NCBI GenBank assembly: GCA_964016885.1
Contig: OZ024742.1
Coordinates: 57,102,001-57,166,000, forward strand
DNA: 64,000 nt
Direction: 5' to 3'
From: Eledone cirrhosa
Taxonomy: Eukaryota
Part shown: positions 8,388 to 22,273 of the stretch, one piece after another
Numbering within the stretch: position 1 is the first letter of the stretch
Layout of the letters: every line of letters starts with the position of its first letter
The notes under the pieces: generated by a model
What the model was told of the DNA's origin: nothing
The model's input: only the letters and a program-made list of their open reading frames with translations
Database searches by the model: none
Made by a program: the position numbers and the translations under genes

Positions 8388-8572
8388 ATTGGCAGTATCA
8401 GTAGAGCGTCAGACACCATGCTTTGCAGCCTAGAGTTGCGGCCCTTTATGGTCTGAGTTCAAATCCCACCGAGGTTAACTTTACCTTTCATCCTTACAGG
8501 GTCGATAAAATAAAGTACCAGTAATGCACTGGGATAGTTGCTGGCCTTGTGCCAAAAGTAGAAACAATTATT
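8388..8572 (+). mobile_element. tRNA-derived SINE ending in an (ATT)n tail
   Basis: A-box-like TGGCAGTATCAGTAG and B-box GAGTTCAAATCC, then the Meta-like core, ending GTAGAAACAATTATTATT. Confidence 0.8.
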
Positions 8573-8579
8573 ATTTTTA

Positions 8580-9047
8580 TTGCGCATCATTACTGCTTTA
8601 CTGAGCACAGCTATGTCGCCTTAGAAATGAGCAGTGTAGTTTTTGCTGATGTTGTTTCTGTTGTATTGATAGTACTTTTCATGATATGTGTGCAGTGCCT
8701 TGTAATGCTATTTTTTTGTATGCTGTATATATTTGTAAGTCCTGGAGATTAGGTTATGTGTTTGTCTTTGTGTGTTTTTATCATTTCCAGAGCACCTATT
8801 ACTATAGGTGTTGTTTCAGTTTTCATTTTCCACATTCGAGTTATTTCTATCTCTAGATCATTACGGGGTCGATAAAATAAAGTACCAGTAATCTACTGGT
8901 TAATTGCTGGCCTTGTGCCAAAAGTAGAAACAATTATATTTGGAGAGTTTCTCCATTTCCTTGGAAGATATAGTGTCGTCTGTGGAGATTGATATCTCTA
9001 TTAGAAGGCAATTTTTTCTTTGTGGTATTTAACTTTAATATCTGGTC
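8580..9047 (-). mobile_element. old 5'-truncated R4/Dong-like element (family C), RLE C-terminus, interrupted by a SINE fragment at 8860-8937
   Basis: Minus strand translates, with stops and frameshifts, as NRPDIKVK...LLIEISIS...KEMEKLSK / DLEIEITRMWKMKTETTPIVIGAL...GTAHI. Confidence 0.75.
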
Positions 9048-9080
9048 TATTATTATTATTATTATTATTATTGTTGTTAT

Positions 9081-12000
9081 TCCTTGAATCTCAGTCATTG
9101 ATGTTAGTTAACTGGAAAGTCCGTTGGAATGAATATCAAGCCACTACCTGCAGCCTCAGATATTCAGGACGTATCGGAGGGTTCTTGCTGTTCCAAGCAA
9201 GCATGCCTTTTGAAGCGTTCCAAAAAGCGTGAAGGGGCCGATTTTCTTTAACCATCCCTGGAAACTTTTGGAGATAGTCCCCAGTGCGCCTATGACAATC
9301 GGGATCACTTTGTCTTCATGGCAGTTCCAAATCCTTTTCACCTCCCACTTTAGGTCCTGGTATCGGTTAATTTTCTCCCTCTCCTTCTCTTGCACTCTCG
9401 TGTCGAACGGGCAGGCCACATCCACAATCAGACGCGATCTTTTTTCTTTGTCCACAACCACCAGGTCAGGTCTATTGTGTTCCAGTTTTTTGTCCGTCTG
9501 TATCCTAAAATCCCACAGCACCTTCACCTGATTGTTCTCCATCACCGCCTCCGGCCTATGCTCATACCATTTCTCAGAATGTGGTAAATTGTTTATTTTG
9601 CACAGGTGCCAGTGGATCACCCTGCCCATCACATCGTGTCTCCAGCCCTTATAGTGGGTCTGGGCTAGGTGTTTACACTCGGACACAATGTGAGCCACAG
9701 TCTCCTCTCTCTCTCCACAGATCCTGCACAGTGGGCTAGCCTCCTCCTTGTAAATATGGTGCTTCAACCACTTCGTTTTGAGGGCCTGCTCCTGCGCAGC
9801 CACTATCATTCCTTCTGTAGCCTTTTTGAGGTCTCCTCTTCTCAACCAGTTCCATGTCTGTGGATCTCTAAATTCAGTTTTCTCAAAGAAGGTACTATGA
9901 AGGGATTTTCCCTTAAGGCTGCTCTTCCTCCTTGATGTTATTTCCTCCTTGGACATCCCCTGGCCTACTGTCCCCTCCTTCAGTACAGTTTTGAGCATTG
10001 GCTCCTTACTATAGGTCACGTATTTGTATAGGTTGTTTTTCTCCATCTGAACACAGTCCTCTATGCTGATAAGACCTCTTCCACCCTCAGATCTCCTTAG
10101 GTAGAGTCTATCGACATCACTCCTCTTGTGGAACATGTTGTAGATAGTCAATAGCTTCCTAGTCTTCCTATCCATTTCTTTTTGTTCAGCAACATTCCAT
10201 CTCAGAATTCCCGCACTGTACCTAATAATAGACACAGCTCGGGAATTTACTGCGCTTATGGCATTTCTGCTGTTCAGATGTGACTTCAATACGCTCCTTA
10301 CTCTCCGAATGTATTCAGTTCTTAACAATTCCTTCATTTTTTTGTTCTTTATGCCATCAGCCTCCAGAACGCCCAAATACTTGTATCCTTCCTCAGAGTC
10401 AATTTCCTTTATCATCTCACCTGTTGGTATCTGGATCCCGCTACTTCTGCTCAACCTACCCCTCCTCATCACAATGACTCCACATTTACCAATACCAAAC
10501 TGCATACATATATCACTGCTGAAAATACGGACAGTGTCAACAAGCACATCCAACTCCTTCTCACTTTTCCCGAAGAGCTTAAGATCGTCCATGAAGAGGA
10601 GGTGATTGATGGTAAGCTCTCCCCTTCCCAACTTGTATCCTGCTCTCACTTTTCGCAGCATAATGGTCAAGGGCATTAGGGCAAGGACAAACAACAGAGG
10701 GGACAGGCTATCTCCCTGGAAGATACCTCTCTTGATCTTCACGCTTCCCAAGGATACTCCAGTTGATGTCAACTCTGTCTCCCAGGACCCCATACTCCTG
10801 CCCAGCAACTGTCTGATGTTATCTGCCACCCTGAAGATCTCCAGGCTTTTGGTGATCCAAGAATGAGGCACCATGTCAAATGCCTTTCTGTAGTCTATCC
10901 ATCCCATGGCAAGATCAGTGTGTCTCCTCCTGCAATTCCCCATTACCATCTTATCAATAAGTAACTGGTCCTTTGTACCACGTGACTTCTTTCGGCATCC
11001 TTTCTGTTCGTCCGGTAACAAGTTGTTTGTGTGGAGGTGATGGTAGATTTCCTCAGACACAATGCTCGTCAACAGTTTCCACATTACGGACAGACATGTG
11101 ATAGGTCTATAGTTGGTAACATCATTACCCTTGATTCGGTCTTTCATTATCAGAATTGTGGTACCTTTTGTCAACCACTCTGGCACCTCACCCGACACCA
11201 AGCAGTCATTGAACATGGCCGTCAGCTTCGGGTGGAGGGATGTTAAATGTTTAATCCAATACCCCTGCACACCATCTGGGCCTGGTGATTTCCAGTTGGT
11301 TAGTTTTTTGGCCTGCCCCTTAAGAGTTTCAACTGTGATACTCAAATCAGTTTGTTGTTGTGCCTGCTCACCGATCTCCCTCTGTACTGTCTCAATCCAC
11401 CCTGCCTGGGCATTATGTCTAACATCCTGCTCCCATATTCCTCTCCAGAATGTTTTAGTTTGTTCCGCCCCAGGGATCAAGTCGTTGCCTCTTTCTTTCC
11501 CCTCAAGCTGTCCAAACAGCATCTTCTGGTTGTTGTCGAACATGCGGTTCTGTTTATACTGACTGACTCTGTTCTCGTATCGCCTGATTTTTGCACTCTT
11601 TGCTACAATGCGTTGCTTCAATTCCTCTATGATAATATTTAGCTTTTTACTCCTAGTTTTGTATTTTATTTCCAGTCTATTTTTAGTGCCTATGTTTTTT
11701 AGTGTCCCATTCAGTAGTGACTCAAGCTTTCCTATGTCATTTCTCATTTCCCCGATTTTCCCACTCAGTCGCTTCTTCCACCACGGCTCTGCTCTTTCTT
11801 GTCTGTTGTTTCCTCTCGCTTTTATACCAAGTAGTTTCCTCACCGTATTTGCTGTTGCTTTGAGGATATTGTTGCACTGGTGAAGGCTCCTCGCCTCAAG
11901 GTATGGGATGACTTTGTTTAACTTAGCTGTTGTTTCTTTTAACTTTTTCCTGTCTACAAATCTTAGGTTCATAGGTCTCCCACTATCATTGTTCAATTCA

Positions 12001-20300: not shown

Positions 20301-20615
20301 CGTCCAGTGTCCGAGCATTGCTGACTTGCGGATCCAGCTATCAGCTGAGTCCATCGTGAGGATTGCCCCGCCCTCTTCCTTTAGCTGGGAAGGGCAGGCA
20401 GTTTTTATCTGTCTGGTGGCCATGGCGAAAGAGATAGTATGGTGGACACGTTTGAAAGGGCTGAAGACGAGCACTTATCTCTTCGGTGATGCCCTGATTA
20501 ACTTTTTCAAATTTCATTTGAAAAGGAAAATCTTTCATCCAGCATTTTGTTGAAAGATGGGTGAGAGAGGCAAGAATGACCCGAGTGAAGGGGCCTACTC
20601 TGAGTATGTGTCTGT
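17330..20615 (+). pseudogene. Tx1-like ORF2 (APE endonuclease-RT-zinc finger) with multiple stops and frameshifts
   Basis: ORF pieces starting at 17505, 18147, 18582, 19229, 19717 and 20020 carry the motifs in the expected order. Confidence 0.88.
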
Positions 20616-20889
20616 AAATTTAAGGTGGAAAACTGGGAGAGGGCACTTGCCCTGGTGGTCAGGGTCACTGTGGCTTTTTAACGGGCTTTCTCCACGAATG
20701 TCCCTCGGAAGTCTCCCCCCTATTGGGGAATTTTTTCATTGTTCTATTATTACATCCTCTGTTTCTTATATTTTACACGCAGAAATGCCGATTTGTACCG
20801 CCCTGTATTGTCCTGTACTGTCCTTAATGTCTACTTTATGTAGACCCTTGCGGTTAATAAAGAAAGCATTATTATTATTATTGTTATTA

Positions 20890-22201
20890 CTCTTTGAGTC
20901 TCAGTCATTGATGTTAGTTAACTGGAAAGTTTGTTGAAATGAATATCAAGCCACTACCTGCAGCCTCAGATATTCAGGACGTATCGGAGGGTTTTTGCTG
21001 TTCCCAGCAAGCATGCCTTTTGAAGCGTTCCAAAAAGCGTGAAGGGGCCAATTTTCTTTAACCATCCCTGTAAACTTTTTGAGATAGTCCCTAGTGCGCC
21101 TATGACAATCGGGATCACTTTGACTTCATGTCAGTTCCAAATCCTTTTTACCTCCCACTTTAAGTCCTGGTATCGGTTAATTTTCTCCCTCTCCTTCTCT
21201 TGCACTCTCGTGTCGAATGGGCAGGCCACATCCACAATCAGGCACGATCATTTTTCTTTGTCAAAAACCACCAGGTTAGGTCTTTTGTGTTCCAGTTTCT
21301 TGTCCGTCTGTATCCTAAAATCCCACAGCACCTTCACCTGATCGTTTTCTATCACCGCCTCTGGCTTATGCTCATACCACTTCTCAGAATGTGGTAAATT
21401 GTTTACTTTGCACATGTGCCAGTGGATCACCCTGCCCATCACATCATGTCTCCAGCCCTTATAGTGAGTCTGGGCTAGGTGTTTACACTCGGATACAATG
21501 TGAGCCACAGTCTCCTCTCTCTCTCTCCACAGATCCTGCACAGTGGGCTAGCCTCCTCCTTGTAAATGTGGTGTTTCAACCACTTCGTTTTGAGGGCCTG
21601 CTCCTGCGCAGCCATTAACATTCCTTCTGTAGCCTTTTTAAGGTCTCCTCTTCTCAACCAGTTCCATGTCTGTGGATCTCTAAAGTCAGTTCTCTCAAAG
21701 AAGGTACTATGAAGGGATTTTTCCTGAAGGCTGCTCTTTCTCATTGATGTTATTTCCTCCTTGGACATCCCCTGGCCTATTGTCCCCTCCTTCAGTACAG
21801 TTCTGAGCATTGGCTCCTTACTATCAGTCACGTATTTGTGTAGGTTGTTTTTCTCCATCTGAACACAGTCCTCTATGCTGATAAGATCTCTTCAACCCTC
21901 AGATCTCCTTAAGTAGAGTCTATCGACATCACTCCTTTTGTGGAACATGTTGTAGATAGTCAATAGCTTCCTAGTCTTCCTATCCATTTGGTTTTTGTTC
22001 AGCAACATTCCATCTCAGAATTCCCGCACTGTACCTAATAATAGACACAGCTTGGGAATTTACTGCACTTATGGCATTCCTACTGTTCAGATGTGACTTT
22101 AATACGCTCCTTACTCTCCGAAGGTATTCAGTTCTTATCAATTCCTTCATTTTTTTGTTCTTGATGTCATCAGCCTCCAGAACGCCCAAATACTTGTATC
22201 C

Positions 22202-22202
<1 letters not shown>
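20890..22202 (-). mobile_element. 5'-truncated Dong family A copy
   Basis: Highly similar to 9081-10390. Truncated at GYKYLG and joined to (TTA)n at 22202-22266. Confidence 0.92.

Positions 22203-22273
<71 letters not shown>

What the first reader, a model, noticed from the sequence alone, without database searches (positions are those of the whole stretch)
8388..22266. 14-kb self-perpetuating array in (TTA)n: R4/Dong (minus) and Tx1-like (plus) elements share one microsatellite target in opposite orientations
Seen, in order: SINE (ATT) tail, Dong-C, (TTA)n, full Dong-A, (TTA)n, truncated Dong-A, (TTA)n, full Tx1-like, (TTA)n, truncated Dong-A, (TTA)n. Every Dong reads into TAA repeats and the Tx1-like element reads into ATT repeats. 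Known: Dong targets (TAA)n, and the Tx1-clade Kibi and Koshi elements target TC and TTC microsatellites. Inference: an (ATT)n-specific Tx1 lineage (APE endonuclease) has converged on the Dong (RLE) target, and each insertion regenerates target for both.
Basis: partly seen in the sequence, partly recalled or inferred. Interest (0 to 1): 0.7.

Follow-up and report, generated by a model that had tools for sequence, protein, structure and literature searches.

The report
Two jumping-gene clans share ATT repeats
Two unrelated kinds of copy-and-paste jumping gene, plus a very abundant short passenger element, sit stacked in the same short ATT repeats throughout this octopus-like genome, each kind facing its own fixed way and with more repeat around it than empty sites hold, and one kind has likely borrowed the other's front end.

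Summary
The array is real and is the genome's rule. The APE LINE family has 9,671 exact 3' ends. Of 621 exact 5' ends, 583 follow in-phase TTATTATT (background 0.04%), and 15 of 25 simply truncated copies abut an ATT run (0.27%), so ATT is target, not only tail. Dong reads into AAT; the Tx1-like LINE and the SINE (152,897 ends) read into ATT (25 of 25 in random DNA). Target-site duplications (11-21 bp) define a short site, ^ATTATW, not a long microsatellite. Empty sites hold 3 ATT units; a filled one holds 12+6. The SINE shares orientation, site and a covarying CUUGU hairpin with the LINE. Corrections: the window's Tx1 copy is dead, a second SINE fragment was missed, specificity by the endonuclease alone is unproven, and Tx1 membership was not tested against named references. 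Precedents exist (Keno/Utopia, SART/TRAS). The scan reported the target, polarity and SINE link before on other DNA of this genome. Added here: the Dong 5' leader resembles the Tx1 leaders end to end, probably by capture.

The parts
8388..8566 (+). SINE (185-nt family; this copy lacks the first 9 nt), 3' hairpin TGGC-CTTGT-GCCA at 8542-8554
   Evidence: 152,897 exact 3' ends genome-wide
8567..8582 (.). imperfect ATT run joining the SINE 3' end to the Dong-C 3' end
8581..9047 (-). Dong-C: decayed, 5'-truncated RLE C-terminus of a third Dong family, in two pieces (8581-8860, 8938-9047)
   Evidence: blastx to Dong-B C-terminus 47% and 54% identity
8857..8937 (+). second, 5'-truncated SINE inserted inside Dong-C at an ATTAT-like site
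9048..9081 (.). (TTA)n; its right part is the encoded imperfect AAT/AAC tail of Dong-A
9082..13625 (-). full-length Dong-A (R4/Dong type); open frame 9156-12581, 1,141 aa, RT + CCHC + PD-(D/E)xK-type nuclease
   Evidence: young family, 96-98% to 20 other copies, 9 of 20 with an open 1,136-1,141-aa frame
13397..13625 (-). Dong-A 5' leader (about 229 nt, ending in an A-run + ATGGCT) resembling the Tx1-family leaders; the frame after this ATG is broken in 12 of 12 copies
13625..13719 (.). (TTA)31 target run
13720..15131 (-). 5'-truncated older Dong-A copy with internal deletions (86.5% to the full copy)
15150..15174 (.). (TTA)8, ending in the family's fixed ATT|GG phase; preceded by a 19-nt filler of unknown origin
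15175..20867 (+). Tx1-like APE LINE (TxA), full extent but dead: leader to about 15390, ORF1 remains to 17296 (CCHC knuckle), ORF2 remains 17331-20617, 3' hairpin GACC-CTTGC-GGTT at 20843-20855
   Evidence: intact ORF2 in 6 of 40 other copies
17014..17033 (+). empty SINE hot-spot in ORF1 (ATTAAATTTG...); filled in 6 other copies with different 5' ends and duplications of 0, 12, 13, 18, 19 and 20 bp
20868..20889 (.). ATT run at the tail-to-tail junction of TxA and Dong-A
20890..22203 (-). 5'-truncated Dong-A copy (94.9% to the full copy)
22202..22268 (.). (TTA)22 closing the array
46454..57031 (.). second array with the same rule (TxC +, SINE +, Dong-A -, Dong-B -, Dong-A -); starts in the 3-unit ATT site of a short repeat whose (TA)n resumes after 57031

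Best explanation
The array is a pile-up of independent insertions at one short ATT site by an RLE LINE clan (Dong, always reading into AAT) and an APE LINE clan with its SINE (always reading into ATT), which likely nick opposite strands of the same repeat and leave more repeat than they found. Shown: polarity, site, duplication, run growth. Inferred: the APE enzyme nicks the AAT strand at WATAAT^ (top strand ^ATTATW). The freed end pairs with 3-6 nt of AUU at the RNA 3' end, reverse transcription starts at the body/tail boundary next to a CUUGU hairpin bound by ORF2p, and a second nick 11-21 nt away duplicates 4-7 repeat units. Extra 5' units come from AUU carried on the transcript or from slippage. 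Dong does the mirror reaction on the ATT strand with its own AAT/AAC tail. The SINE likely uses the APE LINE's ORF2p. Specificity is most likely a joint product of an A/T-preferring endonuclease and tail pairing, and resides in ORF2 or the 3' end, since swapping the leader and ORF1 leaves it unchanged.
For: Target: 583 of 621 exact 5' ends follow TTATTATT against 0.042%. Simply truncated copies with an ATT run at the 5' junction: 11 of 15 among 39 best-scoring copies and 4 of 10 among 40 position-picked copies, against 0.27%. Site: 22 resolvable duplications (17 SINE, 5 TxC) are 11-21 bp, with A18/T20/T22/A22/T20 of 22 at +1..+5 and only weak preference upstream; 30 of the 38 candidates carry no tail units between body and duplication. 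Interrupted ATT runs are repeated on both sides of TxA copies L100, L108 and L002 (by eye). Polarity: in 400 kb of evenly spaced DNA, 20 of 31 ATT runs abut these families; Tx/SINE are ATT-sense in 13 of 13 and Dong AAT-sense in 12 of 12. 19 of 40 TxA 3' ends are followed by an antisense Dong and 8 of 40 by a sense Tx, with no exception. Dong-A: AAT run at 29 of 30 full-length 5' ends and 7 of 12 truncated ones. Regeneration: 8 empty alleles of one repeat-borne site have 3 ATT units, and the TxA-filled allele has 12+6. ORF1 swap: 12 of 12 intact 5' ends of the subfamily with another leader and ORF1 also follow in-phase ATT. SINE link: 134,289 of 152,897 SINE ends are followed by ATTA; 4-bp stem with changes on both sides at 3 of 4 pairs, 5 of 500 shuffles as high; the CTTGT loop lies before 121 of 295 runs on the ATT side and 1 of 295 on the AAT side.
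Against: 10 of 25 truncated TxA copies and 5 of 12 truncated Dong copies have no run at the 5' junction, so specificity is loose or junctions are remodelled. The fixed ATT|GG phase of full-length copies suggests that some 5' ATT is element-borne, so the 94% is not independent of the element. No TxA duplication entered the final set of 22, because its flanks are pure repeat; the site consensus rests on TxC and the SINE, and two of the 22 share one site in another repeat. The hairpin is only 4 bp, counted on 7 related rows. In 50 + 4 and 57 + 7 neighbour pairs within 15 kb, 4 Dong and 7 Tx neighbours break the polarity rule, presumably separate arrays or inversions. No biochemistry or RNA was available.
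Confidence: 0.8

Rival explanations
1. The APE endonuclease alone reads the ATT repeat, and the RNA tail is irrelevant.
For: Most resolvable insertions carry no added tail. The nick phase is fixed. EN swaps change the target of SART1/TRAS1 (PMC7265360, passages).
Against: Information lies almost only on the side of the nick that can pair with the RNA. In 4 insertions the 3' copy of the duplication has the ATT letter where the 5' copy differs (L038, L187, L193, L200), which implies RNA-templated bases. The stretch aligning to the L1 EN hairpin has L1 length and lacks the 2-residue extension of the LTX chimera (role of that loop recalled, not tested).
Confidence: 0.3
2. The endonuclease is a generic A/T-rich nicker and the site is chosen only by tail pairing, so the convergence is one of tails rather than of enzymes.
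For: Upstream bases are merely A/T-rich. Some insertions lie in AT-rich unique DNA or other repeats.
Against: One site in TxA ORF1 (ATTAAA, only 4 nt complementary to the tail) was hit independently in 6 copies, while a better-matching ATTATT 20 nt away was not. This points to DNA recognition beyond pairing.
Confidence: 0.2
3. ATT is only a 3' tail, and the array arose by tandem duplication, mis-assembly or chance clustering in AT-rich DNA.
For: All members end in ATT/AAT runs; a few junctions are duplicated (L273/L278, L285/L286).
Against: The window's three Dong-A copies differ by 5-13% and have different truncation points. Target duplications and empty alleles exist. Enrichment is more than 2,000-fold.
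Confidence: 0.03

Closest known systems
Kibi (TC)n, Koshi (TTC)n and crocodilian Tx1 families in (TTCC)n/(TTTC)n (PMC4494074; passages and part 3 of 5 read)
   Same: APE-RT LINE of the L1/Tx1 group inserted preferentially in a microsatellite; passes that paper's rule of more than 20% of flanks
   Different: Target is ATT rather than a pyrimidine repeat; about 10^4 copies; shares the site with an RLE clan; relationship to Kibi/Koshi untested
Dong (R4 clade), (TAA)n-specific in most insects, molluscs and cnidarians (PMC7998251, passages); Dong-R4 and L1-Tx1 recently active in Octopus vulgaris (PMC13282606, part 1 of 3)
   Same: Single ORF with RT, CCHC and RLE; reads into AAT on both sides
   Different: Bombyx Dong has a self-cleaving HDV-like 5' end (PMC3774820, passages). 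My simple descriptor found none in Dong-A; instead there is a 1-kb leader whose first 230 nt resemble the Tx1-family leaders
Keno (APE, Tx1) and Utopia (RLE) at one site in U2 snRNA genes (PMC4640811, passages)
   Same: Parallel evolution of an APE and an RLE element on one target
   Different: There the 3' flanks are identical; here the two clans use opposite strands of a repeat that they themselves multiply
SART1 and TRAS1 of Bombyx on (TTAGG)n (PMC7265360, passages)
   Same: Two LINEs in fixed opposite directions in one repeat; short recognition word; RNA-target pairing proposed
   Different: Both are R1-clade APE elements at telomeres; here the enzymes are of two unrelated classes and the sites are dispersed
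SINEU/Tx1-Mar (PMC4494074) and stringent SINE-LINE pairs such as ZmSINE2/LINE1-1_ZM (PMC3747384; passages and Table 1)
   Same: A SINE shares target, or a 3' hairpin with compensatory changes, with an L1-group LINE
   Different: No Tx1 partner appears in that 58-pair table; here target, polarity, duplication length and hairpin are all shared

Membership tests
R4/Dong clade (Dong-A) | single ORF with RT and C-terminal CCHC + PD-(D/E)xK nuclease, no APE | tested here: met
   RVT_1 E 3e-23, no Exo_endo_phos; CRIC..H..SEC and RPD..DVACP read in the translation (motif meaning recalled)
R4/Dong clade (Dong-A) | (TAA)n target in sense orientation | tested here: met
   29 of 30 full-length and 7 of 12 truncated 5' junctions
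R4/Dong clade (Dong-A) | N-terminal Myb/SANT-like domain | tested here: inconclusive
   No Pfam hit at E 0.05; a W-spaced segment is visible by eye; no profile-profile search run
R4/Dong clade (Dong-A) | HDV-like ribozyme at the 5' junction (Bombyx Dong) | tested here: inconclusive
   0 matches with my descriptor in 7 Dong-A 5' ends and no Rfam ribozyme; the descriptor had no positive control
R4/Dong clade (Dong-A) | RT phylogeny with named R4/Dong | not tested
   no named Dong sequence fetched
Tx1 clade (TxA, TxC and kin) | ORF1 with CCHC knuckle; ORF2 with APE, RT and C-terminal CCHC; no RNase H | tested here: met
   Exo_endo_phos E 1e-11 and RVT_1 E 1e-28; best solved relatives are L1 endonucleases; catalytic-type motifs present in an intact copy; knuckle read in ORF1
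Tx1 clade (TxA, TxC and kin) | target preference with target-site duplication | tested here: met
Tx1 clade (TxA, TxC and kin) | RT phylogeny grouping with Xenopus Tx1, Kibi, Koshi or Keno rather than other L1 lineages | not testable with these tools
   No named Tx1 reference among the hits. The tree shows only that the three ATT families tested form a clade with two unnamed proteins, 100/99. Named relatives: Argonauta hians 58%, Patella caerulea 31%
Stringent SINE-LINE pair | shared 3' stem-loop with compensatory changes | tested here: met
   3 of 4 pairs change on both sides, 91.7% paired, 5 of 500 shuffles; 7 related rows only
Stringent SINE-LINE pair | mobilisation in trans that depends on the hairpin | not testable with these tools
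   needs a retrotransposition assay
tRNA-derived SINE | tRNA-related head with A and B boxes | not tested
   head looks tRNA-like from recall; Rfam gave no tRNA match in 8000-23000

The most novel reading that the evidence does not exclude
The shared ATT site is a breeding ground across enzyme classes. Tail-to-tail arrays put a Tx1-type promoter and ORF1 start one inversion away from a Dong reading frame, and this genome's Dong families took their 5' leader from the Tx1-type clan in that way. An RLE retrotransposon thereby replaced a ribozyme-made 5' end with a rival's promoter, while the same Tx1-type enzyme drives the dominant SINE.
Probability: 0.45. Interest if true: 0.7.

Novelty: new variant of a known kind. 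Interest (0 to 1): 0.52.

Why it matters
It adds a target (ATT) to the microsatellite-seeking APE LINEs, gives a likely driver for a SINE with more than 150,000 copies, and explains why most long ATT runs in this genome (20 of 31 sampled) sit at retrotransposon ends: the elements multiply the repeat. Natural copies with intact ORF2 exist for both clans, so two unrelated nucleases can be compared on the two strands of one duplex, and the old question of endonuclease versus RNA-tail pairing can be tested directly. If the Dong leader came from the Tx1-type clan, it is a promoter transfer between RLE and APE retrotransposons, with a visible route.

Tried and rejected
No RNA holder was listed for the Dong-A stretch. 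Contigs laid on the TxA 5' end skip the repeat and gave nothing on junctions; two other organisms' runs gave 0 contigs, which is no proof of absence. Rfam found only simple-repeat noise. An HDV-like descriptor found nothing in 11 5' ends (no positive control). Homolog searches and cluster look-ups gave no named Tx1, Kibi or Koshi, so the tree cannot place the family; Dong-A there is a very long branch. A genome-wide count of LINE-Dong junctions by one gapped pattern is missing; sampled loci and position lists stand in for it. I first took L064 for a template switch; the layout fits a genomic inversion better. I first took (GAA)n for the Dong 5' end; the end is A(G)GGAAG, and GAA runs are occasional. 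A recurrent neighbour that I suspected to be another Dong 3' end is the 5' end of the alternative-ORF1 subfamily. The z-matrix used 60 shuffles although its label says 150. Kojima and Fujiwara 2004 and Xiong and Eickbush 1993 are not held; the supplement and tree figure of PMC4494074 could not be seen, and Repbase cannot be searched, so an ATT-targeting Tx1 may be on record there.
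Full report
Setting. The window lies at G000:C3:57,102,001-57,166,000 of a 3.0-Gb genome. The closest named relative of the APE LINE's ORF2 is from Argonauta hians, at 58% identity, so the host is likely an octopod.

Observation. The 14-kb array is as described, with three corrections: a second SINE fragment inside Dong-C, a 19-nt filler before the (TTA)8, and a Tx1-like copy that is full in extent but dead. Dong-A has an open 1,141-aa frame with RT, CCHC and a restriction-like nuclease motif. 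The three Dong-A copies differ by 5-13% and end at different points, so they are separate insertions. A second array with the same rule lies at 46,454-57,031.

Is ATT a target or a tail? Exact counts over the whole genome give 9,671 3' ends of the APE family (TxA), 10,993 of Dong-A and 152,897 of the SINE. Of 621 exact TxA 5' ends, 583 are preceded by TTATTATT in one phase, against 0.042% of positions in 40 evenly spaced 10-kb stretches. The fixed phase suggests that full-length transcripts carry some AUU at the 5' end, so truncated copies are the cleaner test. Among the 39 best-scoring 3' ends, 14 were full-length (all ATT), 10 were rearranged, had another ORF1 or had no printed junction, and 15 were simply truncated, 11 with an ATT run at the junction. 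Among 40 copies picked by position, 16 were full-length (all ATT), 13 were of the other kinds, and 11 were simply truncated (10 independent): 4 with a run, 2 with an ATTA-initiated duplication in other DNA (by eye) and 4 with neither. The background is 0.27%.

The site. I examined 206 element ends and found 38 candidate duplications in non-pure repeat. After dropping 16 (tail units skipped, repeats of one hot-spot, simple-repeat or tandem cases), 22 remained: 17 SINE and 5 of the related family TxC. They are 11-21 bp long and begin A18/T20/T22/A22/T20 of 22, then A or T; upstream bases are only A/T-rich. Most have no tail between body and duplication, so the apparent tail is largely target. 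In 4 cases the 3' copy has the ATT letter where the 5' copy differs, which implies a few RNA-templated bases. TxA itself sits in pure runs, but interrupted runs are repeated on both sides in L100, L108 and L002. One site in TxA ORF1 (window 17014) took a SINE independently in 6 copies.

Polarity. In the evenly spaced DNA, 20 of 31 runs of four or more units abut these families; Tx and SINE are ATT-sense in 13 of 13 cases and Dong AAT-sense in 12 of 12. Of 40 TxA 3' ends, 19 are followed by an antisense Dong and 8 by a sense Tx family, with no exception. On C1 0-44.6 Mb, 22 of 100 TxA ends have a Dong-A end within 130 nt, all opposite, with 0.06 expected. Within 15 kb the nearest Dong-A is opposite in 50 of 54 and the nearest TxA parallel in 57 of 64. 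Dong-A has an AAT run at 29 of 30 full-length and 7 of 12 truncated 5' junctions, and an encoded AAT/AAC tail.

Regeneration. A short repeat in this genome carries a 3-unit ATT site. Eight alleles were empty with 3 units and four were filled; the TxA-filled one has 12 units before and 6 after, and a Dong-filled one has long runs on both sides. Median pure runs are 11 units before and 7 after TxA, but 0-2 after 28 of 30 SINEs in random DNA. The gain exceeds the duplication, so 5' AUU on the transcript or slippage must add to it (inferred).

Where specificity resides. A quarter of the position-picked copies (10 of 40) join a different leader and ORF1 to the same ORF2 at one point; 12 of 12 intact 5' ends of that subfamily also follow in-phase ATT. 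The determinant is thus in ORF2 or the 3' end. The one-sided consensus and the templated bases favour pairing; the ORF1 hot-spot favours DNA recognition. I commit to both acting together.

The SINE. Its ends are followed by ATTA in 134,289 of 152,897 cases. It has the Tx polarity and duplication length, and ends in a 4-bp hairpin with the loop CUUGU, like TxA, TxB and TxC; 3 of 4 pairs change on both sides. This points to the APE LINE as its driver; the evidence is from sequence only.

The Dong leader. The first 206-237 nt of Dong-A and of four Tx families are collinear: a GCTCC..GTAAG-like word near +30-50, an A/T-rich spacer, and an A-run + ATGGCT at the end. In Tx this ATG opens ORF1; in Dong the frame is broken in 12 of 12 copies. 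A profile built from Tx leaders alone finds the window's Dong-A leader as its third hit after the two Tx leaders (E 5e-4). An older Dong leader scores 77 and 70.5 against two Tx leaders, and of 3,440 genomic tiles only a Dong leader scores higher. Four further leaders found this way are followed by Tx ORF1, three also by ORF2; a fifth showed neither. Against: the Tx profile missed one diverged Dong leader in the random DNA, that leader scores no better than the 99th percentile, the TxA2 leader matches poorly, and all are A/T-rich. Dong-B, 40% identical in protein, carries the same leader type. Locus L064 shows a route: an inversion in a tail-to-tail array has fused 310 nt of TxA leader and ORF1 start to a Dong frame in sense (one example). 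Capture from Tx to Dong is inferred from the broken frame.

Comparison with print. Dong on (TAA)n is known (PMC7998251, passages), as are microsatellite-seeking Tx1 families on TC, TTC, TTCC and TTTC (PMC4494074, passages and part 3 of 5), APE/RLE convergence on U2 (PMC4640811, passages), opposite directions on one repeat (PMC7265360, passages) and the Bombyx Dong ribozyme (PMC3774820, passages). PMC3747384 (passages, Table 1) lists no Tx1-SINE pair; PMC13282606 (part 1 of 3 and a term search) counts active Dong-R4 and L1-Tx1 in O. vulgaris without targets; PMC4758252 (passages) describes LINE-derived 5' ends shared across clades. Nine searches gave no ATT-targeting Tx1 and no Dong-Tx1 leader sharing. 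Repbase, the 2004 and 1993 papers and one supplement could not be seen.

Earlier notes of this scan report the target, polarity, SINE hairpin, ORF1 swap and a leader shared among Dong families on other DNA of this genome. I had reached the first three, and seen the ORF1 swap, before looking; they are not independent support. None of those shown states that the Dong leader matches the Tx leaders.

Verdict. A real, genome-wide system: a new variant of known target-specific LINE behaviour, with Tx1 membership met on architecture and target but untested by phylogeny. Interest 0.52.

Noticed in passing
window 46454-57031: Second mixed array (TxC, SINE, Dong-A, Dong-B, Dong-A) apparently nested in the 3-unit ATT site of a short repeat; the TxC copy has two ORF1-like stretches (47138-47780 and 48072-48443) and lacks the APE part.
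   Followed up: partly
window 36584-36951, 24902-25267, 27552-27667: Unclassified short repeat (about 0.6% of sampled DNA) ending in (ATT)3 + (TA)n; serves as a natural landing site for both clans.
   Followed up: partly
L260, L267 and 12 other loci: Young subfamily with another 5' leader and ORF1 joined to the TxA ORF2 at one point; 10 of 40 position-picked copies; two have both frames open.
   Followed up: partly
TxA leader about +150-165 (L264; window about 15325-15345): A hairpin in the 5' leader, GGGC-CTTGT-GCCC in L264, resembles the 3' hairpin and the SINE end; the leader profile also hits Tx and SINE 3' ends weakly.
   Followed up: no
Tx and Dong leaders, +30-50 (window 13575-13590 on minus): The shared GTAAG word looks like a splice donor; earlier notes propose a 5' UTR intron in Tx leaders. 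Dong keeps the word.
   Followed up: no
L064 (G000:C3:321932497-321940303): Inversion that fuses a TxA leader and ORF1 start to a Dong-A frame in sense.
   Followed up: partly
L158, L159, L161, L163, L164, L172: Dong-A subfamily with a 330-nt tandem duplication in the leader, which doubles the ATGGCT block.
   Followed up: no
L034, L047, L048, L059, L070, L265: (TTC)n, the Koshi target, often lies next to the ATT run, at Dong 5' ends and at one truncated TxA junction.
   Followed up: no
window 39842-41275: Internal TxA-like fragment without ATT flanks, with a small inverted repeat at its left end.
   Followed up: no
window 23683-24103: 30-bp minisatellite with an open 157-codon frame.
   Followed up: no
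P0060 cluster: A limpet (Patella caerulea) relative occurs as 11 near-consecutive genes on one contig, suggesting a tandem, target-specific array.
   Followed up: no
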